In this document: positions 9,027 to 30,819 of the stretch, in pieces
Layout: the number at the start of each line of letters is the position of its first letter
Numbering within the stretch: position 1 is the stretch's first letter
The notes under the pieces: generated by a model
What the model was told of the DNA's origin: nothing
Databases searched by the model: none
What the model saw: only the letters and a program-made list of their open reading frames with translations
Source of the DNA: Bacteroidota bacterium
Lineage (GTDB): Bacteria > Bacteroidota > Ignavibacteria > UBA10030
NCBI GenBank assembly: GCA_035541775.1
Contig: DATKMP010000120.1
Location: forward strand, 1 to 39,196
DNA: 39,196 bases
Direction of reading: 5' to 3'
Made by a program: the position numbers and the translations under genes

Positions 9027-9228
9027 AACAAAAGCGCTCATTGAAAATTATGAACTTGCCGGTACGAAAAAAATTGACTTTTGTTCAAAGCATCCAGAAC
9101 GGAAGGAGGGATCCAGTATAAATTTTTTTCATTTCGCGTTTGTTATTGTTGGGTTCAATATCCTGACGCTTGCGGCGGGGAACTTCATTTCGGAATGTTG
9201 ACGTCAATATCGATTTGGAACAAATTAA

Positions 9229-9293
9229 TTTTTGACTTGCTTTTATAGACCTTACATATTATTTTACTAAATCGGTTCAATTGCTGTTGAACC
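9229..9293 (+). promoter_or_regulatory. Conserved promoter/operator block, copy 1. -35 TTGACT (9232-9237), A/T-rich -10 candidates CATATT/TATTAT (9255-9262), inverted repeat GGTTCAA-N6-TTGAACC (9274-9293)
   Basis: About 57 nt upstream of the GH3 start. 57 of 63 aligned positions are identical to 15472-15534, with one 2-nt indel. The 7-bp inverted repeat is perfect and lies just downstream of the putative -10. Confidence 0.6.
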
Positions 9294-9350
9294 CGTTTTA
9301 TAAATTGAATTTAGAACCTGAGAATAATAAAATTAAAGAGGAGATAAGCA

Positions 9351-11189
9351 ATGTCAGCGGAAAGAGATAAATTTGTTGCATCGAAGCTAGCGAAAATGAC
9401 CCTGGAGGAAAAATGCGGCCAGGTTCTTACCTTCACATGGCGCGGTGCATACTTGACGCCTTCGGGATTTGAACAGATCACCCGGTTGCATGCCGGTGGC
9501 CTTTGTTTGGAACCCTACGCGTTGGAAACCTGTAAAAACTTATATTGGGGACGTTCGCAAGTTGATCCCACGTTCAAGAAACCCAAAGACTGGTTCGATG
9601 TTGCGCACACCTACTTCGACGACCGCAGCTTCGGCGTAAGCGTAACTCCTGAAGAGCTCACTGCTGCGCTCAATCAACTTCAGCAAATCGCGAAAGATCG
9701 TCCCGCGGGTATTCCTCTCCACATTACCATTGACATGGAAGGTGATTTCAAAAACGATTACTCCTCCGGTCACGTCATCCAGTTCCCACCGCCGATGGGT
9801 ATCACTGCAATCGGCGACGTAGATCTCGCCTACAAGGTGGCGTACACGCTCGGTAAGCAAATGGCTTTAATCGGCATCACACAATTTTACCATCCTGTAT
9901 GCGACGTTAACATCAATCCCTTGAATCCTGAAATCGGTGTGCGTTCTTTCGGAGACGATCCGAAGGTTTGCGCAAAATTTGTTGATGCGACAGTTCGCGG
10001 ATATCAAGATGCTGGCATCGTAGCGACTATTAAACATTTTGCCGGTCGCGGTGATTCAGCGACCGATGCGCACGATACATTAGACGTATGCCGTGGCGAC
10101 CTGAAACGCATGAAGGAAGTCGAGCTGGTTACATTTCAGGCAGGCATCGATGCCGGCGCCAAAGCACTGATGACGGCACACACAATCTTCCCAGCATTTG
10201 ATAAAGAATATCCATCCACACTCTCGTCAAAGATTCTCGTTGATCTCTTGCGGAAGGAAATGGGTTTCCAGGGAGTTGTTGTTTCCGATGCTATTGGCAT
10301 GGCCGCCATTCTGAAAAAATGGCCGCTGCCTCAAGCATGTGCCATGGCCATTAAAGCTGGTGTGGACACCATTCTTCTCAAGGCAGACGATGAATCCCGT
10401 TCGCAGTGTTTCTTTGGGATCAAGGGCGCAGTGGAACGTGGAGAACTTTCCGAAGAACGGCTTAACGATGCAGTCCGCCGGCTTCTTTGCATGAAGTACG
10501 ATCAAGGCCTGTTTGAAAAAGCTGGAAAAATGAAACCGGAAGATACGCACCTCCATGTTCACAGCAAGGAAGTTCAAAGTTTCTCACGCGAAGTGGCGGA
10601 GAAAGCGCTTCTTGTGGTGCGCGATAACAAAAAGCTCCTTCCTCTTTCTAAGGACAAAAAAATATTGGTCATCGAACAAATCATTCCTTACTCCTTCTTG
10701 GGTAAAGATCTGTACAGCCATCCGCACATGTTCTGCGAGCAGATGGCCAAGCATTCAATGAACCTCATTTTAGATGATACCGCCTTCTATGCCGGCGACG
10801 AGGAAATAGAGGAAGCTTTGAATCTTGCCAAGTCGGCGGATATGGTTGTTATGACGAATTACTATGCCCGCATCGAGAAAAAGGGCAATAACCAGCGTTT
10901 GGTAAAAGCGTTGAAAGCTGCGGGACACACGGTGGTTGTCGTGACCAACTTCCCGTACCGAAAAGGCGTCACCAGTGAAGCCGACGCTGTGGTCTGCAAC
11001 TTCTCCGGCTCGCCTGATTCTATCCGCGCCGCCGCAGATCTTCTGTGGGGTGCTGTTAAAGCATCTCCGACAACGAAGATGCCGATTGATCTAAGCGCCG
11101 AAGCGAATATTCCTGACGAACCCGCCGCTCCTTTTAAGCCCGCGAAGAAGTCAGGAGCTAAAGCGAATATGTGGGCGGGAAAGTGCTAG
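9351..11189 (+). CDS. GH3 glycoside hydrolase (two-domain beta-glucosidase/beta-xylosidase/NagZ-like), no signal peptide, presumably cytoplasmic
   Basis: GAGGAG RBS. GH3 motifs KHFAGRGDSATDAHD and GVVVSDAIGMAAI (nucleophile Asp context). C-terminal alpha/beta domain. Lys/Ala/Pro-rich tail (PAAPFKPAKKSGAKANMWAGKC). Confidence 0.85.
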   Translation: MSAERDKFVASKLAKMTLEEKCGQVLTFTWRGAYLTPSGFEQITRLHAGGLCLEPYALETCKNLYWGRSQVDPTFKKPKDWFDVAHTYFDDRSFGVSVTPEELTAALNQLQQIAKDRPAGIPLHITIDMEGDFKNDYSSGHVIQFPPPMGITAIGDVDLAYKVAYTLGKQMALIGITQFYHPVCDVNINPLNPEIGVRSFGDDPKVCAKFVDATVRGYQDAGIVATIKHFAGRGDSATDAHDTLDVCRGDLKRMKEVELVTFQAGIDAGAKALMTAHTIFPAFDKEYPSTLSSKILVDLLRKEMGFQGVVVSDAIGMAAILKKWPLPQACAMAIKAGVDTILLKADDESRSQCFFGIKGAVERGELSEERLNDAVRRLLCMKYDQGLFEKAGKMKPEDTHLHVHSKEVQSFSREVAEKALLVVRDNKKLLPLSKDKKILVIEQIIPYSFLGKDLYSHPHMFCEQMAKHSMNLILDDTAFYAGDEEIEEALNLAKSADMVVMTNYYARIEKKGNNQRLVKALKAAGHTVVVVTNFPYRKGVTSEADAVVCNFSGSPDSIRAAADLLWGAVKASPTTKMPIDLSAEANIPDEPAAPFKPAKKSGAKANMWAGKC

Positions 11190-11230
11190 CACCTGCCGTT
11201 TTCTCATAACGCAAATAGAAACAATCATCA

Positions 11231-11271
11231 CAAGCGCCGGCGACGAATTTGAAAATCGAAACCGGCGCTTG
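11231..11271 (+). other. Intra-operon stem-loop between the GH3 and GH116-like genes
   Basis: CAAGCGCCGG (11231-11240) pairs perfectly with CCGGCGCTTG (11262-11271). The loop is 21 nt and can partly pair internally. Only GTTT follows, so it is not a classic terminator. Confidence 0.4.
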
Positions 11272-11315
11272 GTTTAAAACAGAACCTTCAAAAAGAAATT
11301 ATAAATTACAAACCA

Positions 11316-13877
11316 GTGAGCGAGACAAAAATGCCGAAATCAACCGCGTTCGACCTGCATGATATCTACACCATTGCGGGACCCCAAATTGACACCATTT
11401 ATAAAAAGAACAAGATGACGGTTCACTTTCAGGGAATGTCCAAGACGTTGCAGTTCCCGCAAACGGTCGCCCTGCAGGGAGCGCCGACATGTTCTATCGG
11501 CATATCCCCTTATGGTTTGTACAATCGTCTGAACGACGCGGGCAGACTTATCATGCTAAATCAAAAATCGGTTCAGTTCGGCTCTGCACCTTACGTCCGC
11601 ATCGGCGAGACCTGCACGATGCTGACCCAGCAAAAGCTGGACGAAACCGAATTGCCCGATGATATCCCGGCGCTCAAAAATTATTATCATACTCCGATTG
11701 CCGAAAAAAATGTTTCTCTTTCGATTGCCACACCGTCATTGGAGATCACCTATAAACTGGGGAAGATAAAAATCATCCGACGGCTTATCTCTCCTTTGTT
11801 GTCGGGAAACGATCAAACGCTCATGCCCTTTGGCGTCGAAGAGTTTGAAGTTGAAAATACCGCAAATGAGGCCGAAGATCTCTCTCTTGTGATTCCCAGG
11901 CCATCCCTGGTCAACTTACAGGAGAAGGAACTCAAGCCGACCGATCAAGACAGCGTGTACGTAAGTTCGGCCGCAGTCAGCGGTCAAAAGCATGAACAGT
12001 TCCAGTCCGCAGGTCTTCGCGGAGTGATTATGGGCAGCACAGAAACCGACAACCGAATGGCGATAGCTGTGCCCGAACTGCCAGGTGTCACTATAGATGT
12101 TCAACCATACTTTTGTCTGAACAAATATACAGGCGATCTTCTTTTAAATGAGGATGGAAGTTTCTATGAAAAGCGCGAGCCATTACTCCGCAGTGATTAT
12201 GGAGCAGCTATCAGTCTGACTTTCACCGTTGGCCCGAAGTCAATAGTGAAAATTCCTGTGATTGTTGTGCTCGATTTTCCAGTACAGATTTACATTGATG
12301 GAACGACATTTGAACGAAAATATGTTAAAAAATTTCCAAACGCGGTGACGCGGACAATTGACTTAGCCCAACGTGCGCTGGAAAATTATCCGGCATGGTG
12401 GGATCGGACTGTTGCGATCCAGAAACGAATCTTCGATTCGATCCAGACTAGTTCTTCTTACAAAGGCGATCGTGCTGGTGCTTTACGTCTTACCCGCCTG
12501 ATTCTAAACGAACTTCATTTTCCGTTGTCCAATGCCATCGTCTGGATTGAGGATGAAAATGGAAAGGATCGTGCACGGTTTCTGGAATGTTTCGATTACG
12601 CGTACATCGATCCTTCCGATGTGGATTGGTATTCGATGGTGTTGCTGATGCTTTTCCCGCAAGTTGAAAAAGATTTGTGTCAGGCATTCATCGATTCGAT
12701 TCAAGCCGTAGATCCAACGCCACGTTGGTACCACTACCATGCGTCCTTCGTTGATGCACGCAGACATTTCCAAGAACATCCAGAGGCATACGAAGGTCAA
12801 TCGATGACTCAAATCCGCGACGACTTTAAAACGAAGGGAAGTGTGGCTCACGATGTAGGCGCCATGCCCAAGGGACATCCACTCCGCAACGTAAGTGATT
12901 ATGCATGGTATAACAACAACTACTGGGTCGATCTGTATCCAAAACTTGCAATGCGTGTGCTGCGCAATGTCAAGTTCACAGGCGATATCGAATTCGTAAA
13001 GAAGAATTGGGAAACACTCAAATTTGGATTGGAGTCACTGCTCCAGCTCGATTTTGACAACGACGGCATACCCGAGGGTTATCCTAACGAAGTGAAGAAC
13101 ACATTCGATAATTTAGTCCTCTTCGGAGCCGATGCTTATGATGCGACGCAATTTTTAGGCGGATGCCAAGCCCTGATCACACTGGCCGATATAGTCGGCG
13201 ACCAAGCTGGCAAGGAACGCATACAACAAGCATTCGATAAAGGTTGGCAAGCGCTCGAAAAACTGTGGCGTGACGGAAAAAACAAAAAGGGCGAGAAGCT
13301 TCAGTATTATATCACGTGCTTCGATCCCGAGAGTGGAAAGAAAAATACCGACGTCTGGACCAACCAGCTCGATGCTTTGTGGTACCTGATCGCGATCGGT
13401 GAAAAGCCGCTCATTCCCGAAGACCGCGTTAAAAAAATTCTCAAAACAATTTATCGTAATAACCACTCTTTCATGGGTTGGGCCATGTGCAAAACCGAAA
13501 ATGGTAAACCGGTAGAGTCGGATCAAGGAAAAGACGTCTATACGACTTCCAATTATGTCTTTGCCCAATTGTTGGAATACTATGGTATGACGCGGGAGAG
13601 TAAAGAAGTCTATAAACACATGGATCGAGTGGTCTTCGATTATGCCAATACGATGACCACACCGGACAATCTTCGCGCGGAATTAGAGAAAGAGGCGGGA
13701 GAGTCTGCAGCTGGGCCGCATTATATCGTTGCCGCCTATCCGCGACCGGGTGCTGTCTGGACGCATCTGGTTCTGAACCACATCAAAGACGTGCAAGCTA
13801 AGACTCAATCGAAGACAGTCGAATCAAAAGACCTGATGCCGTTCTTCTCTGAATTACTAAAAGAAACAGAGAACTAA
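11316..13877 (+). CDS. Divergent GH116/DUF608-type (GBA2-like) beta-glycosidase, no signal peptide
   Basis: C-terminal (alpha/alpha)6-type block: HDVGAMPKGHPLRN..NYWVDLYPKLAMRVLRNVKFTGDIEF..LDFDNDGIPEGYPNEVKNTFDNLVLFGADAYDATQFLGGCQAL. It matches the DUF608 pattern HDxG...W.DL..KF.L...R......D.DGxxE...TxD....G.saY. The N-terminal domain is divergent. The start is GTG 11316 or ATG 11331, and neither has a good RBS. Confidence 0.7.
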   Translation: MSETKMPKSTAFDLHDIYTIAGPQIDTIYKKNKMTVHFQGMSKTLQFPQTVALQGAPTCSIGISPYGLYNRLNDAGRLIMLNQKSVQFGSAPYVRIGETCTMLTQQKLDETELPDDIPALKNYYHTPIAEKNVSLSIATPSLEITYKLGKIKIIRRLISPLLSGNDQTLMPFGVEEFEVENTANEAEDLSLVIPRPSLVNLQEKELKPTDQDSVYVSSAAVSGQKHEQFQSAGLRGVIMGSTETDNRMAIAVPELPGVTIDVQPYFCLNKYTGDLLLNEDGSFYEKREPLLRSDYGAAISLTFTVGPKSIVKIPVIVVLDFPVQIYIDGTTFERKYVKKFPNAVTRTIDLAQRALENYPAWWDRTVAIQKRIFDSIQTSSSYKGDRAGALRLTRLILNELHFPLSNAIVWIEDENGKDRARFLECFDYAYIDPSDVDWYSMVLLMLFPQVEKDLCQAFIDSIQAVDPTPRWYHYHASFVDARRHFQEHPEAYEGQSMTQIRDDFKTKGSVAHDVGAMPKGHPLRNVSDYAWYNNNYWVDLYPKLAMRVLRNVKFTGDIEFVKKNWETLKFGLESLLQLDFDNDGIPEGYPNEVKNTFDNLVLFGADAYDATQFLGGCQALITLADIVGDQAGKERIQQAFDKGWQALEKLWRDGKNKKGEKLQYYITCFDPESGKKNTDVWTNQLDALWYLIAIGEKPLIPEDRVKKILKTIYRNNHSFMGWAMCKTENGKPVESDQGKDVYTTSNYVFAQLLEYYGMTRESKEVYKHMDRVVFDYANTMTTPDNLRAELEKEAGESAAGPHYIVAAYPRPGAVWTHLVLNHIKDVQAKTQSKTVESKDLMPFFSELLKETEN

Positions 13878-13990
13878 ATTAAAAATCAGACGCGGTTCCC
13901 GTATGGGATTCAGTCTGGAAGCGCGATAATGAAAGTCCGCTTTGAACAAAAAGAACAAATTATTTGACGTTACCATCAACTAAGGATTAA

Positions 13991-14893
13991 ATGAATATGT
14001 CTAAAAAGTACGACATCACTTTTGTAGGCCACATGTGCTATGATGAAATTGTTCCATTCGGCGGAAAGCCGCGTGTTGCTCCGGGAAGCGCCGTTTTGTG
14101 CGGAGCCATGGTCGCTGCAAGAGTAGGCAAGAAAGTTGCTACTGTGGTCAAGATGGCTAAAAAAGATGAATCCATTCTCCAGCCGATGAAAAATATCGGC
14201 ATCGATACGTACCTCATTCCAAGTGACGAAACTTCGTATAACAGGGTGGTTCACGAGTCCGAGAACGTTGATGAACGCACAATGACGCTCATAAAATCTG
14301 CAGGATTGATTTCTCTCAACGAAGTTCCGGCTTTAGACTCGACGTGTTTTCATCTGGCGGGAATATCGGACACCGAATTCGACATGGCGCTTATGAAGGG
14401 TTTAAAGTCCAGAAACTACAAAAGTCTATCGGTCGATATGCAGAGTTTCGTCCGGCATATCAATCCGGTGACACACAATCATGAATTTAGCGATGTCGCC
14501 GATAAAAAAGAGATCGCGGCGATGATGGATAAGCTCAAGCTGGATGTTGTGGAAGCACGCCTTCTCACTGGTACGGATGATTTAGAGAAGGCCGCTCTCA
14601 TCGTTGAATCTTGGGGATGTCGGGAAGTCATGATCACTCATTCGCAAGGTGTATTGGCGCGGGTGAATGGTGTAACGTATTATGAAAAATTTTCTAACAG
14701 TAACGTTTCAGGCAGAACAGGACGTGGGGATACGACTTTTTCGGCGTACCTGTCCTGGCGGTTAGATCATGATCCCAAGGAATCCCTGAAATTCGCGGCG
14801 GCATTGGTTTCAATCAAGATGGAAACTCCCGGGCCTTTCAGTGGATCATTAGAGGATGTCTTAATCCGGTTGAAAGAAAAGCATTCTTTGTAA
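13991..14893 (+). CDS. PfkB/ribokinase-family carbohydrate kinase, substrate unknown
   Basis: 300 aa. C-terminal PfkB anion-hole motif SGRTGRGDTTFSAY. N-terminal ITFVGHMCYDEI..GSAVLCGAMVAARVGKKV resembles the VGH..D-type PfkB subgroup rather than classic RbsK/KdgK. AAGGA RBS. An alternative ATG lies at 13997. Confidence 0.75.
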   Translation: MNMSKKYDITFVGHMCYDEIVPFGGKPRVAPGSAVLCGAMVAARVGKKVATVVKMAKKDESILQPMKNIGIDTYLIPSDETSYNRVVHESENVDERTMTLIKSAGLISLNEVPALDSTCFHLAGISDTEFDMALMKGLKSRNYKSLSVDMQSFVRHINPVTHNHEFSDVADKKEIAAMMDKLKLDVVEARLLTGTDDLEKAALIVESWGCREVMITHSQGVLARVNGVTYYEKFSNSNVSGRTGRGDTTFSAYLSWRLDHDPKESLKFAAALVSIKMETPGPFSGSLEDVLIRLKEKHSL

Positions 14894-14960
14894 AGGAGTG
14901 ATAAAAGCGTTAATCGATCTTTTCGCAGGAACGATTTCCGTTACATATTTTGAGTTATGA

Positions 14961-14988
14961 TGCTGTTAGAGATAACAGCATTTTTTTT
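14961..14988 (+). terminator. Rho-independent terminator of the GH3-GH116-PfkB operon
   Basis: TGCTGTTA-GAGA-TAACAGCA is a perfect 8-bp stem with a tetraloop, followed directly by T8 (14981-14988). Confidence 0.8.
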
Positions 14989-15001
14989 GCCGCCAGTGGT
15001 T

Positions 15002-15450
15002 TTAAGGGCACAGTGCGATACCCATGGTGAACTTTTTAGAAGCCCTTTCAACAATGGTCGTACGCCGGTCATCCATCGTCATCCACGCATCTTGATGATA
15101 CTTTCCTGCTTTCGGTTCACCAAAGTGCTGAAACGTTTATCGAACGGTCAACCATAAGGGAATCCAGAATTCTGTACTTTGCGCCATGCCGGTTCATCGG
15201 CGGGGAAGATGGGTGGGCAAATAAAAACGTCCGGGTGTGTCAGATTGGTTTTAAAACAGGTTCTCGTAAAATTTGTTTGCTATAATACTAAAAAAGTAAA
15301 TCAACCATGTGTCTCGACGTCCGATAGGGTTTCGTGATATTGGACATCTGCACCGCCGGCCTCCATGATCGCTATCGTCGAAGTTTCGATAGGAATAAAG
15401 TCCATGGTTCCACAAGGATTTTTCTTGATCTGTGCAGTTACCAAGCTCAT
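15002..15450 (-). pseudogene. Possible decayed minus-strand gene: an intact 49-codon 5' ORF followed by out-of-frame protein-like fragments
   Basis: The reverse strand reads ATG(15450)..MSLVTAQIKKNPCGTMDFIPIETSTIAIMEAGGADVQYHETLSDVETHG*(15301). Further fragments follow in other frames: HPDVFICPPIFPADEPAWRKVQNSGFPYG* and FQHFGEPKAGKYHQDAWMTMDDRRTTIVERASKKFTMGIALCP*(15002). I recognised no family. Confidence 0.25.
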
Positions 15451-15471
15451 ATTTTCATAGAGTAAAATTGT

Positions 15472-15534
15472 TTTTTAACTTGCTTTTACAGACCTTACAT
15501 ATTATTATTGAATCGGTTTAATTGTTGTTGAACC
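15472..15534 (+). promoter_or_regulatory. Conserved promoter/operator block, copy 2. -35-like TTAACT (15475-15480), same A/T-rich -10 region, inverted repeat GGTTTAA-N6-TTGAACC (15515-15534)
   Basis: Direct repeat of 9229-9293 with about 90% identity. It lies about 180 nt upstream of the GPH transporter start. Confidence 0.55.
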
Positions 15535-15716
15535 TTTTAAAAAGAATAACAAGAGCCGAAGAAAAATGACGCGGATCTCGTTAATCTATTTGGTAGGTCA
15601 CTTGGTCGATGAAGAATGGTCGTACACCATTGATGTGAGAAATGAAAATCGCCAAAAGCTGTTCGTATTGTTACGGTTTCGTTTAATCAAATAAAAAAAA
15701 TAATTTAGAATAACGC

Positions 15717-17093
15717 TTGAGGTCTCTTGTGCAATCTCTTTCTGAAAAACTTTCCGTAAAAGAAAAAGTCGGATATGCCCTTGGCGATACCGCCGCTAAT
15801 TTTATTTTCCAAACGATGATTATGTTCCAGTTGGCATTTTACACCGACACGTTCGGTTTAACTGCCGTTGCTGCAGGAACATTGTTTTTAGTGGTACGAT
15901 TCTGGGATGCAATTTTTGACCCTGTTATGGGAGTGGTTGCAGATAAAACCAATACACGATTCGGAAAATTTCGTCCATGGATTTTGTGGACCGCAATACC
16001 GTTCGGGATCATGGGATTTTTAACATTCATGACGCCGAACTTTTCGCCAGGCGGAAAATTAATTTATGCATACGTCACCTATATTATATTGATGATGGTG
16101 TATTCGGCGAACAACCTTCCGTATTCGGCGTTGAGCGGAGTGATGACCGGAAATCTTGGTGAACGCACCGGCTTGTCGCAGTACCGATTTGTGTTTGCAA
16201 TGATTGCACAGTTGATTATTCAAGGGTTGGCTCTGCCGATGGTGTATTTTTTCGGCAAGGGCAATAATGCCATCGGGTATCAATGGACCATGGGAATTTT
16301 TTCCACGCTTGCAGTTTTCTTGTTCTTTATTACGTTCGCAACGACGAAAGAACGCATTCAACCGGCGCCGAATCAAAAGGCAACGGTCAAACAACACTTT
16401 TCCGACCTTACCAAAAATGGCCCGTGGATGGCAATGTTCGCGCTTACCATTATTCTCTTTATTACGCTCTCGCAGCGTGGAAGTGTTGTGCTCTATTACT
16501 TTAAATATTATGTACGGGATGAAGGCTACTTTAGCATGTTCAATGTGCTGGGAACGCTCGCCACGATTATCGGTATCTTTTTCTCAAAAGGACTGGCAAT
16601 GAAATACGGCAAACGCAACGTGTTCATCGGCGGCTTGCTGGGAACAACGTTGTTCACGGCGCTCTTTGTATTCTTGCCGCCTTCTGCAGTGCCGATGATG
16701 TTTGCCACTGAAATTCTCCGACAGTTTTCCTATGGGTTCACCATTCCATTGTTATGGGCAATGATGGCAGACGTTGCAGATTATTCCGAGTGGAAAAACA
16801 ACCGGCGTGCAACCGCGATTGTTTTCTCGGCAATTGTATTCGCCTTAAAAGCGGGACTTGGTTTTGGCGGCGCCATATCCGGCTATGTATTGTCCCTCTA
16901 CGGCTACGTGCCGAACGCGGTTCAAACACCGGAAGCGTTAAATGGCATACGCATGGCAATGAGTATTTTTCCGGCAATCACATTTGGACTCTGTGTAATA
17001 TGTTTGTGCTTCTATCGCATTAACAAGCAAACGGAAATTCAAATCTCAACGGAGTTAGAAGAGCGGCGCAAGTTGTACGCTCCCGCGAACTAA
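15717..17093 (+). CDS. Glycoside-pentoside-hexuronide (GPH) family sugar:cation symporter (xyloside/xylo-oligosaccharide or glucuronide transporter type)
   Basis: GPH N-terminal signature KVGYALGDTAANFIFQ..FYTD..GL.A..AGTLFLVVRFWDAIFDPVMGVVADKTNTRFGKFRPW. About 12 predicted hydrophobic segments. The start is TTG 15717 or GTG 15729. Confidence 0.88.
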   Translation: MRSLVQSLSEKLSVKEKVGYALGDTAANFIFQTMIMFQLAFYTDTFGLTAVAAGTLFLVVRFWDAIFDPVMGVVADKTNTRFGKFRPWILWTAIPFGIMGFLTFMTPNFSPGGKLIYAYVTYIILMMVYSANNLPYSALSGVMTGNLGERTGLSQYRFVFAMIAQLIIQGLALPMVYFFGKGNNAIGYQWTMGIFSTLAVFLFFITFATTKERIQPAPNQKATVKQHFSDLTKNGPWMAMFALTIILFITLSQRGSVVLYYFKYYVRDEGYFSMFNVLGTLATIIGIFFSKGLAMKYGKRNVFIGGLLGTTLFTALFVFLPPSAVPMMFATEILRQFSYGFTIPLLWAMMADVADYSEWKNNRRATAIVFSAIVFALKAGLGFGGAISGYVLSLYGYVPNAVQTPEALNGIRMAMSIFPAITFGLCVICLCFYRINKQTEIQISTELEERRKLYAPAN

Positions 17094-17106
17094 TCATTCG
17101 GCGATT

Positions 17107-18240
17107 GTGAATCATTTTTTAAATAATAGAGAACAAAGGTTGTTTTTAATGTTGACGTGGTTGAGCTCTGTTTGTCTCTTCGGCACGGGGTGCAATAGTG
17201 TTTCAGCACAAACGTTGCCGAGCTTAAAAGAAGTCTTTAAGAACAATTTTTTGATCGGCGCGGCAATCAATCAAAATCAAATTTCTGAACGCGATACGAT
17301 CGGAGTCGCAATTCTTTCATCGCAATTTAATTCTATCTCACCGGAAAATGTACTAAAATGGGAACGCGTGCATCCGCACTTCGACCGGTACGATTTCGAC
17401 GCTGCGGACCGTTATGTTGCTTTTGGAAAAAAATATGGCATGGCCATCATCGGACATGTTTTGGTCTGGCACAATCAAACACCACCATGGGTCTTTGAAG
17501 ACAGCGCGGGAAAACCGGTAGATCGTGAAACATTGTTGCAACGCATGCACGAGCATATTGCAACGGTGGTCGGCCGATACAAGGGGCAGGTTCATGGCTG
17601 GGATGTTGTGAACGAAGCAGTGAATGAAGACGGCACGCTTCGTGAAAGCCCATGGCTGAAAATAATCGGTGAAGATTATATCGAAAAAGCATTTCAATAT
17701 GCGCATGAAGCCGATCCGTCTGCGGAACTTCATTACAATGATTTCTCGTTGGAGAACAAACCAAAACGCGATGGCGTTTTGAAGTTGATAACGAAGTTGA
17801 AGGAACATGGTGTTCCGGTAACGGCAGTCGGATTGCAAGGGCACTATAAAATGGATTGGCCGACGCTTGCTCAAATCGATACGACGGTTGATGAATTTGG
17901 CAAACTCGGGACGCGTGTTATGATCACCGAATTGGATGTTGATGTTGTTCCTGCCACGCAAGCCAATCGCGGAGCGGATCTTTCATTGAACAATCAACGA
18001 CAAGCGCATGCCGATGTATATGCTGCCGGTTTGCCGGATTCCGTACAGCAAGCGCTTGCAAAACGATATGCCGGCCTCTTTACCGTGTTTCTTCGCCATA
18101 AAGAGATTGAACGGATAACATTTTGGGGCGTAACAGACGCCAATTCGTGGCTCAATACCAGGGGCCGCACCAATTATCCGCTGCTCTTTGATCGAGAAGG
18201 AAAAGCTAAGCCGGCATTCGATGCTGTGATAAAACATTAA
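17107..18240 (+). CDS. GH10 endo-1,4-beta-xylanase with signal peptide and no T9SS C-terminal domain
   Basis: GH10 motifs GHVLVWHNQTPPWVF, GWDVVNEA (acid/base Glu), VMITELDV (nucleophile Glu), ITFWGVTD. The start is GTG 17107 or, more likely, ATG 17149 (MLTWLSSVCLFGTGCNSVSAQ), which gives a possible lipoprotein Cys. Confidence 0.92.
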   Translation: MNHFLNNREQRLFLMLTWLSSVCLFGTGCNSVSAQTLPSLKEVFKNNFLIGAAINQNQISERDTIGVAILSSQFNSISPENVLKWERVHPHFDRYDFDAADRYVAFGKKYGMAIIGHVLVWHNQTPPWVFEDSAGKPVDRETLLQRMHEHIATVVGRYKGQVHGWDVVNEAVNEDGTLRESPWLKIIGEDYIEKAFQYAHEADPSAELHYNDFSLENKPKRDGVLKLITKLKEHGVPVTAVGLQGHYKMDWPTLAQIDTTVDEFGKLGTRVMITELDVDVVPATQANRGADLSLNNQRQAHADVYAAGLPDSVQQALAKRYAGLFTVFLRHKEIERITFWGVTDANSWLNTRGRTNYPLLFDREGKAKPAFDAVIKH

Positions 18241-18260: not shown

Positions 18261-18294
18261 TTGTACAATGGAAACGGTTACATATATACATTGT
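18261..18294 (+). promoter_or_regulatory. Candidate sigma70-type promoter for the TBDT unit (TTGTAC-16 nt-TATATA), flanked by a 6-bp inverted repeat ACAATG/CATTGT
   Basis: -35-like element at 18261-18266 and -10-like element at 18283-18288. ACAATG 18265-18270 pairs with CATTGT 18289-18294. It shares the TTACATAT string with the conserved blocks at 9229 and 15472. Confidence 0.3.
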
Positions 18295-29624: not shown

Positions 29625-29781
29625 ACAGGATGTATAGCGTTTCAATATTAGTAATTGTCGATAAAATATCATACATTCTTTACCAACAGTTTCAAAACAT
29701 TTTAACGACAAAAGGAAAACGACCGACGGGGATCTTACGATGTAAAAATAGGGAGGATGGCTTTCAGAAAGGGATCGGCAA

Positions 29782-30819
29782 GTGAAGAAAATAACTATTG
29801 AAGACGTTGCAAAGAGATCGGGTGTGTCAAAGGGCACGGTTTCTGCGGTGATCAATGCAAAAAACACGGTGAAACCCGCAACGCGCAATCACATTCTTGA
29901 AGTAATGAAAGAATTGAATTTCCGCCCAAAAGGTGTTGCACGAAATTTAAAAAACGGCAATCAAGATAAAACCATTGGTATCATCATCAAAGATTTGACG
30001 TATCCTTTTTATACCGCTATTGTTTCCGGAGCAAGGGATTATGCGACGAACAAAGGATATTCCGTCATTGTTTCGAGCTCAGACGATAACCATGAACGTG
30101 AAAAATATTTTTCTCACCTCTTTTCGACAAAAGATATCAAAGGAGTGATCATCGCGCCGGTCGTTGAAGGCGCGGCAGAGATTGAACATCTCTTTCGATT
30201 GAAAATGATCAACTATCCATTTGTGCTGTTAGAAGATGTAAAAGGTATTCAAGCGAATGTTGTGACGATTGATAATATCAAAGCAATCAAACGTGCGGTC
30301 AAATATTTAATTAGTACGGGACACACGAAGATTGTTCATTTTGCCGGCCCTTCGAGCTCCTCGCACACGCAAGAACGCATTGAAGGATTTCGATATGCAT
30401 TTAGCGAAAGTCCGCTAGTATTTCATAACGACATGATTGTCTCGATCGGTTCACATTTTGACGAAAGCTATGTAAAGACGATCGAGTATTTCAAAGAGAA
30501 ACAGCGAAGCGATTACCCGACAGCCATTGTGTGCTTTAACGATCTTCAAGCGCTGGCGGTGATGATGGCGCTGAAAGAATTACAAATTTGTGTTCCTGAA
30601 GATATTTCCGTCGTTGGGAATGATGATATCTTCTATGCGAAGATTTATCCAATCCCGCTAACGACCATCAATGCACCACAACATGAAATCGGCAGACGAG
30701 CAGCAGAAATATTAATTACGAATATTGAATCTCCTTCCTTATTACCCAACGAACATGTAATTCTGGAAACGGAGTTTGTCGTTCGTGAATCATCCCGGGT
30801 TCTGATTGGAAAAAAATAA
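29782..30819 (+). CDS. LacI-family transcriptional regulator
   Basis: N-terminal HTH ITIEDVAKRSGVSKGTVSAVINAKNTVKPATRNHILEVMKELNFRPKGVARNLK followed by a periplasmic-binding-protein-like sugar-binding domain. GTG start. Confidence 0.92.
   Translation: MKKITIEDVAKRSGVSKGTVSAVINAKNTVKPATRNHILEVMKELNFRPKGVARNLKNGNQDKTIGIIIKDLTYPFYTAIVSGARDYATNKGYSVIVSSSDDNHEREKYFSHLFSTKDIKGVIIAPVVEGAAEIEHLFRLKMINYPFVLLEDVKGIQANVVTIDNIKAIKRAVKYLISTGHTKIVHFAGPSSSSHTQERIEGFRYAFSESPLVFHNDMIVSIGSHFDESYVKTIEYFKEKQRSDYPTAIVCFNDLQALAVMMALKELQICVPEDISVVGNDDIFYAKIYPIPLTTINAPQHEIGRRAAEILITNIESPSLLPNEHVILETEFVVRESSRVLIGKK

What the first reader, a model, noticed from the sequence alone, without database searches (positions are those of the whole stretch)
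9229..15534. A 63-nt promoter/operator-like block occurs twice as a direct repeat, bracketing the 6.2-kb cytoplasmic GH3-GH116-PfkB module
Positions 9229-9293 and 15472-15534 align at 57 of 63 positions with one 2-nt indel. No other intergenic DNA in the window is similar.

Both copies are in the same orientation. Each has a -35-like hexamer (TTGACT or TTAACT), an identical CTTGCTTTTA(Y)AGACCTTACATATTATT stretch containing -10 candidates, and a downstream inverted repeat GGTT(C/T)AA-N6-TTGAACC placed where a repressor would block initiation. Copy 1 precedes the GH3 operon and copy 2 precedes the GPH transporter-GH10 unit.

I see two readings, and they are not mutually exclusive:
- It is a shared operator that co-regulates the import step and the cytoplasmic hydrolysis step. 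The locus-encoded LacI-family protein at 29782 is the obvious candidate, but the site lacks the central CG typical of LacI operators.
- The repeats are the footprint of a duplication or recombination event that inserted the GH3-GH116-PfkB module, plus the decayed gene at 15002-15450, between GH43 and the transporter.
Basis: seen in the sequence. Interest (0 to 1): 0.6.

Follow-up and report, generated by a model that had tools for sequence, protein, structure and literature searches.

The report
Duplicated promoter with LacI repressor site
The two near-identical 65-base blocks are two copies of one promoter carrying the binding site of the locus's own LacI-type repressor, so sugar import and intracellular breakdown of xylan fragments are most likely switched on together; this is ordinary bacterial gene control, newly seen in an uncultured Ignavibacteria-like bacterium.

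Summary
Window 9229-9293 and 15472-15534 match at 57 of 65 aligned columns. The blocks occur only twice in the 2.75-Mb genome (blastn E 1.6e-10).

Each block holds a classic LacI-type operator with a central CG. These are CTAAATCGGTTCAA at 9267-9280 and TTGAATCGGTTTAA at 15508-15521.

- **Motif and regulator travel together.** The consensus TTGAAnCGnTTCAA occurs 57 times perfectly in 495 kb around 80 orthologues of the window's LacI gene. It occurs once, inside a coding region, in the window's own genome.
- **Genome-wide rank.** A weight matrix built only from relatives ranks copy 2 first and copy 1 sixth in the whole genome.
- **Single candidate regulator.** The LacI gene at 29782 is the only LacI-family gene in the genome.
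- **Fixed promoter layout.** In relatives the operator starts 28 nt after a -35 TTG in 59 of 67 promoters. A TTGAAC half-site usually follows the operator after 6 nt. Both window copies have it.

The near-identity beyond these elements (spacer 16/17) points to a recent promoter duplication or conversion, most likely from the GH3 promoter. The idea that the GH3-GH116-PfkB module was inserted between GH43 and the transporter, and the "decayed gene", are not supported.

This is a new member of a known kind, of modest interest.

The parts
9222..9300 (+). Block copy 1: promoter-operator module in front of GH3-GH116-PfkB
   Evidence: Aligned with copy 2. Its upstream part is 71% identical to the GH3 promoter of relative L148.
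9237..9242 (+). Likely -35 hexamer TTGCTT of copy 1.
   Evidence: A -35 TTGnCt is conserved in 67 non-redundant related promoters. In copy 1 it lies 30 nt before the operator, because of a 2-nt insertion.
9260..9265 (+). Likely -10 hexamer TATTTT of copy 1, 17 nt after TTGCTT
   Evidence: Read from the sequence. The architecture matches the consensus. The transcription start is not mapped.
9267..9280 (+). Operator O1 of copy 1, CTAAATCGGTTCAA (10/12 to TTGAAnCGnTTCAA, central CG at 9273-9274)
   Evidence: PWM score 18.6 bits, rank 6 in the whole genome. The higher non-window hits lie in coding sequence.
9287..9300 (+). Auxiliary half-site TTGAAC (9287-9292), or weak second operator TTGAACCCGTTTTA (9/12), centre 20 bp from O1
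   Evidence: A TTGAAC half-site follows the operator after a 6-nt gap in 38 of 51 related sites that have such a hexamer nearby.
15465..15545 (+). Block copy 2: promoter-operator module in front of GPH-GH10 (and probably the SusC-like unit)
   Evidence: Its upstream part is 70% identical to the L148 GH3 promoter but only 42-48% identical to the GPH promoters of relatives.
15480..15485 (+). Likely -35 hexamer TTGCTT of copy 2
   Evidence: It lies exactly 28 nt before the operator start, as in 59 of 67 related promoters.
15503..15508 (+). Likely -10 hexamer TATTAT of copy 2 (17-nt spacer). Its last base is the first base of the operator.
   Evidence: Relatives show the same layout, TAATA|TTGAA.
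15508..15521 (+). Operator O1 of copy 2, TTGAATCGGTTTAA (11/12, central CG at 15514-15515)
   Evidence: PWM score 22.8 bits, the best hit in the whole 2.75-Mb genome.
15528..15541 (+). Auxiliary half-site TTGAAC (15528-15533), or weak second operator TTGAACCTTTTAAA (10/12), centre 20 bp from O1
29782..30819 (+). LacI-family repressor gene, the proposed regulator of both blocks
   Evidence: Pfam LacI HTH plus Peripla_BP domains. It is the only PF00356 match in the genome. Orthologues at 70-81% identity are widespread in the order. Its first 60 residues match the orthologue consensus at 58 of 60 positions.
9351..14893 (+). Transcription unit 1: GH3 (9351-11189), GH116-like (11316-13877) and PfkB-like kinase (13991-14893)
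   Evidence: Pfam and NCBIfam matches.
14959..14982 (+). Intrinsic-terminator-like hairpin (10-bp stem followed by TTTTTTT), 66 nt after the PfkB-like stop codon
   Evidence: It explains why the downstream genes need their own promoter.
14894..15464 (.).
   Evidence: No Pfam match. No match in 41 related genomes, by tblastx or blastn to any fetched locus, or in 1.84 billion representative proteins.
15717..18240 (+). Transcription unit 2, first genes: GPH-family sugar:cation symporter (15717-17093) and GH10 xylanase (17107-18240)
   Evidence: GPH orthologues at 75-81% identity lie in the LacI-linked xylan loci of relatives.

Best explanation
Each block is a sigma-70-type promoter. It has a -35 TTGCTT, a 17-nt spacer and a -10 TATTTT or TATTAT. 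Its start region is covered by the operator of the locus-encoded LacI-family repressor (consensus TTGAAnCGnTTCAA). An auxiliary TTGAAC half-site follows the operator after 6 nt, so its centre lies 20 bp, about two helical turns, from the operator centre.

Without inducer, the repressor would sit across the -10/+1 region of both promoters. That would block transcription of the cytoplasmic GH3-GH116-PfkB unit and of the GPH transporter-GH10 unit. An inducer, probably xylose or a xylo-oligosaccharide, would release both at once.

The 87-90% identity, which extends through the otherwise unconstrained spacer, reflects recent shared ancestry. Most likely the GH3-type promoter was copied in front of GPH, by duplication or gene conversion. 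This happened in a lineage where a terminator and about 570 nt of orphan DNA separate PfkB from GPH.

**Shown here:** the repeat, the motif, its co-occurrence with the regulator across genomes, and its fixed position relative to the promoter.
**Inferred:** binding, repression, the inducer, the transcription start, and the direction of copying.
For: 1. A central-CG palindrome lies in both blocks.
2. TTGAAnCGnTTCAA occurs 57 times perfectly and 42 times at 11/12 in 495 kb around 80 LacI orthologues. Five control permutations of the pattern give 0 matches. The window's own genome has one perfect match, inside a coding region.
3. A PWM trained only on relatives ranks copy 2 first (22.8 bits) and copy 1 sixth (18.6 bits) in the genome. 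The other high scorers that were inspected lie inside coding sequence.
4. The window's LacI is the only LacI-family HTH in the genome. Its DNA-binding domain matches the orthologue consensus at 58 of 60 residues.
5. In relatives the same operator precedes lacI itself, xylA, GH3, GH8, GH115 and SusC-like genes.
6. In 59 of 67 non-redundant related promoters the -35 TTG lies exactly 28 nt before the operator. Copy 2 fits this exactly.
7. The TTGAAC half-site at a 6-nt gap recurs in 38 related sites. Chance predicts about 4% for any TT[GA]AAN within an 11-nt window.
8. A natural experiment supports the link. The same-genus genome G001 has no LacI-family match. At the syntenic place it has lost lacI and most of GPH. 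Its GH3 promoter keeps the -35/-10 part, but the operator centre reads AA instead of CG and a 29-nt insert separates it from the -10.
9. A terminator follows PfkB.
10. The upstream parts of the two window copies are 39/45 identical. The equivalent paralogous pairs in L148 and L156 are 20/46 and 22/43 identical. Both window copies resemble the L148 GH3 promoter (about 70%) more than the GPH promoters of relatives (42-48%).
Against: - There is no direct evidence of binding, repression or transcription starts.
- Copy 1's operator has a degenerate left half (CTAAA) and lies 2 nt further from the -10, so its occupancy may be weak.
- No strong operator lies before lacI itself in this window (best 9/12 at 29632), although autoregulation is common in relatives.
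- The genome is 94% complete, and the xylA promoter lies off a contig end, so the regulon cannot be fully listed.
- The direction of copying rests on short alignments of about 45 nt.
- A Campbell-type recombination origin gives the same final structure.
Confidence: 0.82

Rival explanations
1. The repeats are the footprint of a recombination event. A circular or incoming DNA carried promoter-GH3-GH116-PfkB plus extra DNA. It recombined with a resident identical promoter in front of GPH, leaving direct repeats around the 6.2-kb insert. On this view the repeats are primarily scars, whatever regulatory role they also have.
For: - Direct repeats in the same orientation bracket exactly the module plus orphan DNA.
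- The GH3-GH116-PfkB cassette is unusually conserved (75-92% amino-acid identity) on contigs with 40-67% G+C. Most genomes of the same family lack it, which suggests horizontal mobility.
- GPH orthologues in relatives sit in operons headed by other genes.
Against: - No relative shows the 'empty site' GH43-block-GPH.
- The order GH43 | GH3-GH116-PfkB | GPH exists on distant contigs L164 and L190.
- GH3-GH116 directly precede GPH in G032, G023 and G096.
- Both copies are of the cassette's own promoter type. A resident GPH promoter of the same type would therefore have to be assumed.
- Only 65-80 nt of homology is short for such recombination.
- This is a rival about origin only. It does not conflict with the operator function.
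Confidence: 0.15
2. The functional element downstream of the promoter is an RNA hairpin, not a DNA site. GGUUCAAU-UGCU-GUUGAACC would form at the 5' end of both mRNAs. It would act as a stabiliser or, with the following U-run, as an attenuator.
For: - The hairpin folds at -11.7 kcal/mol (z = -3.6) in copy 1 and -8.5 kcal/mol (z = -2.4) in copy 2.
- The C-to-T difference in copy 2 keeps a G-U pair.
- The scan lists copy 1 as terminator-like.
- In relatives the operator's right half plus TTGAAC can always pair.
Against: - The hairpin potential follows automatically from an operator half-site plus a repeated half-site.
- There is almost no variation with which to test covariation: the paired positions are G-C in 37 of 46 cases.
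- Where the operator half deviates (L058, L076, L081), TTGAAC or TTAAAC does not compensate.
- Relatives have no U-run after it.
- Rfam has no match.
Confidence: 0.1
3. The blocks are copies of a small dispersed or mobile repeat (MITE-like). Alternatively they are bound by a regulator other than the locus LacI.
For: Two copies of a short AT-rich element with an internal inverted repeat.
Against: - Only two copies exist in 2.75 Mb.
- No exact match to the core was found in the metagenome contig collection.
- There are no terminal inverted repeats or target duplications.
- The motif tracks LacI orthologues across 80 loci.
- No other LacI-family protein is encoded in the genome.
Confidence: 0.03

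Closest known systems
LacI/GalR-family repressor-operator pairs with TGAAnCGnTTCA-type operators (for example E. coli Cra/FruR; recalled from general knowledge, not tested here)
   Same: An imperfect palindrome of 14 bp with a central CG. The regulator has an N-terminal LacI HTH and a periplasmic-binding-protein-like sugar domain. The operator overlaps the -10/+1 region. The regulator gene lies in or near the regulated locus.
   Different: The regulon content is xylan/xylose use in Ignavibacteriales. A conserved extra half-site lies 6 nt downstream. No biochemical data exist for this orthologous group.
LacI-family xylan regulators: XynR of Caldicellulosiruptorales (PMC12285236), and the LacI-type regulators of TonB-dependent xylan systems such as Xanthomonas (mentioned in PMC12125979)
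   Same: A LacI-family repressor controls several operons for xylan degradation, oligosaccharide uptake and catabolism through sites found by comparative genomics. In Xanthomonas-type systems a TonB-dependent transporter belongs to the regulon.
   Different: A different phylum and a different orthologous group. The XynR motif was not compared here. In the present case two promoters of one locus are near-identical copies.
Promoter/operator duplication within an operon (an internal promoter acquired after an operon is split)
   Same: Two transcription units that were one operon in relatives now each carry the same regulatory module.
   Different: The event is inferred from comparison with relatives only. 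A pre-duplication genome was not found.

Membership tests
LacI/GalR-family operator | Imperfect palindrome of about 14-20 bp with a central CG | tested here: met
   CTAAATCGGTTCAA (9267-9280) and TTGAATCGGTTTAA (15508-15521) score 10/12 and 11/12 to TTGAAnCGnTTCAA.
LacI/GalR-family operator | A LacI-family regulator is encoded in the genome, ideally nearby | tested here: met
   The gene at 29782-30819 has PF00356 plus Peripla_BP domains. It is the only PF00356 match in the genome.
LacI/GalR-family operator | The motif co-occurs with orthologues of the regulator across genomes (phylogenetic footprinting) | tested here: met
   57 perfect sites in 495 kb around 80 orthologues; 0 for five control patterns. 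63 of 80 loci carry at least one site. G001, which lacks the regulator, has a decayed site.
LacI/GalR-family operator | The site is positioned to interfere with RNA polymerase | tested here: met
   The operator starts at or just after the predicted -10, with a fixed 28-nt distance from the -35 in 59 of 67 relatives. The transcription start itself is not mapped.
LacI/GalR-family operator | Direct, inducer-sensitive binding by the regulator | not testable with these tools
   This needs EMSA or footprinting with purified protein.
Sigma-70-type promoter | -35 and -10 hexamers 16-18 nt apart, with transcription starting about 7 nt after the -10 | tested here: inconclusive
   The hexamers are present and conserved.
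Dispersed repeat / MITE | Many copies across the genome, with terminal inverted repeats and target-site duplications | tested here: not met
   Two copies only. No hit in metagenome contigs.
Known cis-regulatory RNA (riboswitch, leader) | Match to a curated RNA family | tested here: not met
   No Rfam match at gathering threshold anywhere in the window.
Intrinsic terminator / attenuator | G+C-rich hairpin followed by a U-run, conserved in relatives | tested here: not met
   The stem is weak (3 G-C pairs). Only copy 1 passes the scan. Related promoters have TTGAAC without a following T-run.
Insertion footprint (direct repeats made by integration) | An empty site with a single repeat exists in relatives | tested here: not met
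   No GH43-block-GPH arrangement was found in 41 relatives, 80 metagenome loci or 11 GPH-orthologue loci. Closer relatives may exist that were not available.

The most novel reading that the evidence does not exclude
The strictly spaced extra TTGAAC half-site (6-nt gap, centre 20 bp from the operator centre) is conserved across many genera. It may define an unusual 'one-and-a-half site' operator architecture for this LacI group. One possibility is two dimers, or a tetramer, bound on one face of the helix. Another is a dual DNA/RNA element, in which the same bases form a 5' mRNA hairpin once repression is lifted. Promoter copying between operons, as seen here, would then be a way in which Ignavibacteriales rewire their xylan regulon.
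Probability: 0.2. Interest if true: 0.45.

Novelty: new member of a known kind. Interest (0 to 1): 0.33.

Why it matters
- It gives a concrete, testable operator (TTGAAnCGnTTCAA), promoter architecture and regulon for an uncultured, environmentally common group. The regulon comprises lacI, xylA, GH3, GH8, GH115, a SusC-like transporter, GPH and GH10. The group, Ignavibacteriales, has no described transcriptional regulation of polysaccharide use that I could find.
- It shows how one lineage kept importer and cytoplasmic hydrolases co-regulated after their operon was split, by copying the promoter-operator module.
- It offers a natural loss-of-regulator comparison within the same genus.
- None of this departs from textbook LacI-type control.

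Tried and rejected
- **MITE or dispersed repeat:** rejected. Only 2 copies exist in the genome, and the 25-nt core pattern has no exact match in metagenome contigs.
- **Known RNA family:** none found.
- **The 'decayed gene' at 14944-15450:** nothing was found for any frame or for a read-through translation. I searched Pfam, 41 related genomes, tblastx and blastn against the own genome and all fetched loci, and phmmer against 1.84 billion representatives.
- **Simple consensus scan of the genome:** mostly chance hits inside genes. I replaced it with a PWM built from relatives plus an ORF-cover filter.
- **Other high PWM hits** (C117, C172, C196, C274, C248, C106): all were inspected; five lie in coding sequence and C106 sits in a short gap at a convergent gene end, none next to sugar genes.
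- **The single perfect site in G001:** it lies between two glycosyltransferase-like genes and is taken as chance.
- **Covariation test of the hairpin:** too little variation to decide.
- **First attempt to orient promoters:** the -35 search window was too narrow. Corrected.
- **Literature:** no paper on a LacI xylan regulon in Ignavibacteria or Melioribacter turned up in the searchable library.
Full report
**1. The observation**

The two stretches are real and at the stated coordinates. MAFFT aligns 9222-9300 with 15465-15545. The repeat finder reports them as the only high-identity intergenic repeat in the window (family D5).

Against the whole genome the pair scores 87.7% over 65 columns: 57 matches, 6 mismatches and one 2-nt gap, E = 1.6e-10. 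The genome is 2.75 Mb in 311 contigs, 45% G+C and 94% complete. There is no third copy.

**2. The setting**

The window is a xylan-utilisation locus. In order it contains:
- GH8, GH115, GH97, GH43;
- block 1, then GH3, a GH116-like gene and a PfkB-like kinase;
- a terminator-like hairpin at 14959-14982 and about 570 nt with no gene;
- block 2, then a GPH symporter, GH10, a SusC-like TonB-dependent transporter, two T9SS-sorted proteins and a SASA-type esterase;
- a LacI-family regulator at 29782-30819.

Record titles of loci that hold LacI orthologues place the organism among Ignavibacteriales/Melioribacteraceae-like bacteria.

**3.

Each block contains a palindrome with a central CG.
- Copy 1: CTAAATCGGTTCAA at 9267-9280.
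- Copy 2: TTGAATCGGTTTAA at 15508-15521.

I first saw the same motif, as TTGAAACGGTTCAA or close variants, directly after TTGACx-17/18-TATATT promoters in related genomes G010, G027 and G032.

**4. The motif belongs to this LacI orthologous group**

- *Orthologues.* Orthologues of the window's LacI (70-81% identity) occur in 45 of 151 sampled genomes of the order and in at least 80 public genome contigs.
- *Enrichment.* In the 495 kb around those 80 orthologues, TTGAAnCGnTTCAA occurs 57 times perfectly and 42 times at 11/12. 63 of 80 loci carry at least one site. Five control permutations of the pattern occur 0 times. The window's own genome has one perfect match, inside a coding region.
- *Genome-wide rank.* A weight matrix built only from relatives ranks copy 2 first in the whole genome (22.8 bits) and copy 1 sixth (18.6 bits). 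The other high scorers lie within coding sequence next to unrelated genes.
- *Single regulator.* The window's LacI is the only PF00356 helix-turn-helix in the genome. Its first 60 residues match the orthologue consensus at 58 of 60 positions, including the recognition helix.
- *Regulon in relatives.* The operator precedes lacI itself, a xylose isomerase gene, GH3, GH8, GH115 and SusC-like genes. I identified the isomerase from its ~439-aa length and its conserved N-terminal sequence, by general knowledge.

**5. Promoter architecture**

In 67 non-redundant related promoters the consensus is ttttttcTTGnCtttt - N - taataTTGAAACGGTTCAAtta..ttnAAC. The -35 TTG lies exactly 28 nt before the operator in 59 of the 67.

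| Element | Copy 1 | Copy 2 |
|---|---|---|
| -35 TTGCTT | 9237-9242 | 15480-15485 |
| -10 | TATTTT, 9260-9265 | TATTAT, 15503-15508 |
| Operator O1 | 9267-9280 | 15508-15521 |
| -35 to operator start | 30 nt | 28 nt |

Copy 2 fits the consensus exactly. Copy 1 has a 2-nt insertion between the -10 and the operator, and a weaker left half-site.

Among related sites, a TT[GA]AAN hexamer downstream of the operator sits at a 6-nt gap in 38 of 51 cases, and it reads TTGAAC in 34. Chance gives about 4% for any such hexamer within an 11-nt window.

In the window these half-sites extend to weak second operators:
- 9287-9300, 9/12 to the consensus;
- 15528-15541, 10/12 to the consensus.

Each is centred 20 bp from O1.

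**6. A natural experiment**

G001 belongs to the same genus. Its coding DNA in this locus is about 78-84% identical to the window's.
- It has no LacI-family match at all.
- At the syntenic place it lacks lacI, keeps only the last ~60 codons of GPH, and has a truncated esterase gene.
- Its GH3 promoter keeps the -35/-10 half of the block. However, a 29-nt insert separates this from a site whose centre reads AA instead of CG.
- Its only perfect motif match lies between two glycosyltransferase-like genes.
- It carries a FecR-type anti-sigma gene in front of the SusC-like gene, which suggests a change of regulatory system.

**7. Why the copies are so alike**

Functional constraint alone does not explain it. 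I compared the part upstream of the operator.

| Pair compared | Identity |
|---|---|
| Window copy 1 vs copy 2 | 39/45 |
| L148: GH3 promoter vs GPH promoter | 20/46 |
| L156: GH3 promoter vs GPH promoter | 22/43 |
| Window copies vs L148 GH3 promoter | 32/45 and 30/43 |
| Window copies vs relatives' GPH promoters | 42-51% |

The 17-nt spacer of the two window copies is 16/17 identical. In L148 and L156 both promoters carry the operator, so they are a fair comparison. Copy 1 is also closer than copy 2 to the GH3 promoter of G001.

True orthologues of the window's GPH (75-81% identity) sit in relatives inside operons, behind another gene and without a promoter of their own.

The simplest account is that a GH3-type promoter-operator was copied in front of GPH. 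This happened after a terminator and orphan DNA came to lie between PfkB and GPH. Gene conversion or a recombinational origin cannot be excluded.

**8. The insertion reading**

- No relative has GH43-block-GPH.
- GH43 | GH3-GH116-PfkB | GPH occurs on distant contigs (L164, L190).
- GH3-GH116 directly precede GPH in G032, G023 and G096.

So the repeats are not shown to be an insertion scar. The GH3-GH116-PfkB cassette does look horizontally mobile on a longer time scale. It has 75-92% amino-acid identity on contigs of 40-67% G+C, yet most genomes of the window's own family lack it.

The 'decayed gene' finds no support in any search.

**9. Other readings**

- *Known RNA family.* There is no Rfam match.
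- *RNA hairpin.* The hairpin formed by the operator's right half and TTGAAC folds at -11.7 and -8.5 kcal/mol. This follows automatically from two inverted half-sites. Covariation could not be tested, and relatives lack a U-run. An RNA role is therefore possible but unsupported.

**10. Verdict**

This is an ordinary LacI-type promoter-operator module present twice, and it most likely co-regulates import and cytoplasmic hydrolysis. It is a new member of a known kind. The regulon and operator do not appear in the literature I could search. The closest described systems are the LacI-family xylan regulators XynR of Caldicellulosiruptorales (PMC12285236) and the LacI-type regulators of TonB-dependent xylan systems (PMC12125979).

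Noticed in passing
window 9351-14893; loci L138-L217: The GH3-GH116-PfkB cassette is 75-92% identical at protein level on metagenome contigs with 40% to 67% G+C. Most genomes of the window's own family lack it; their best GH3 hits are 30-36% identical. This looks like a horizontally spreading three-gene cassette of unknown substrate.
   Followed up: partly
L021/L022 (G001:C9:141000-180999): The same-genus genome G001 has lost lacI, keeps only the 3' end of GPH, and has a truncated SASA esterase gene. It carries a FecR-type anti-sigma gene (L021 17914-19032) just before the SusC-like gene. This looks like a swap from LacI control to sigma/anti-sigma control of the transporter.
   Followed up: partly
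L021 about 9230-9290 (G001, upstream of GH3): A different palindrome, TTGTATTT-N6-AAATACAA, lies in a 29-nt insert between the conserved -10 region and the decayed LacI operator. It could be the site of another regulator.
   Followed up: no
window 14894-15464: About 570 nt of DNA with no detectable homologue anywhere, whether searched as protein or DNA, in the own genome, relatives or 1.84 billion representative proteins. Its origin is unknown.
   Followed up: yes
window 15535-15716: The predicted GPH leader is about 200 nt long, against about 78 nt for GH3. It contains a 42-codon ORF (15566-15694). It has no Rfam match and no similarity in relatives.
   Followed up: partly
window 18269-18282 and 29632-29645: Two weak operator-like sites, each 9/12 with a central CG. 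TGGAAACGGTTACA lies in the 87-nt spacer before the SusC-like gene. GTATAGCGTTTCAA lies upstream of lacI. In relatives these two promoters usually carry strong operators. Here the sites score far below the training sites.
   Followed up: partly
genome contig C4:8-1192: The xylose isomerase gene of this genome starts at a contig end (residue 44 onwards). Its promoter carries the operator in many relatives but is not assembled here.
   Followed up: no
loci L057-L136: Regulated promoters fall into two flavours. The TTGACA type usually has the TTGAAC half-site and lies before xylA and a large GH3. The TTGCCT type often has TTAACC/TTACC instead and lies before lacI and SusC-like genes. The window's blocks combine a TTGCTT -35 with the TTGAAC half-site.
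   Followed up: partly
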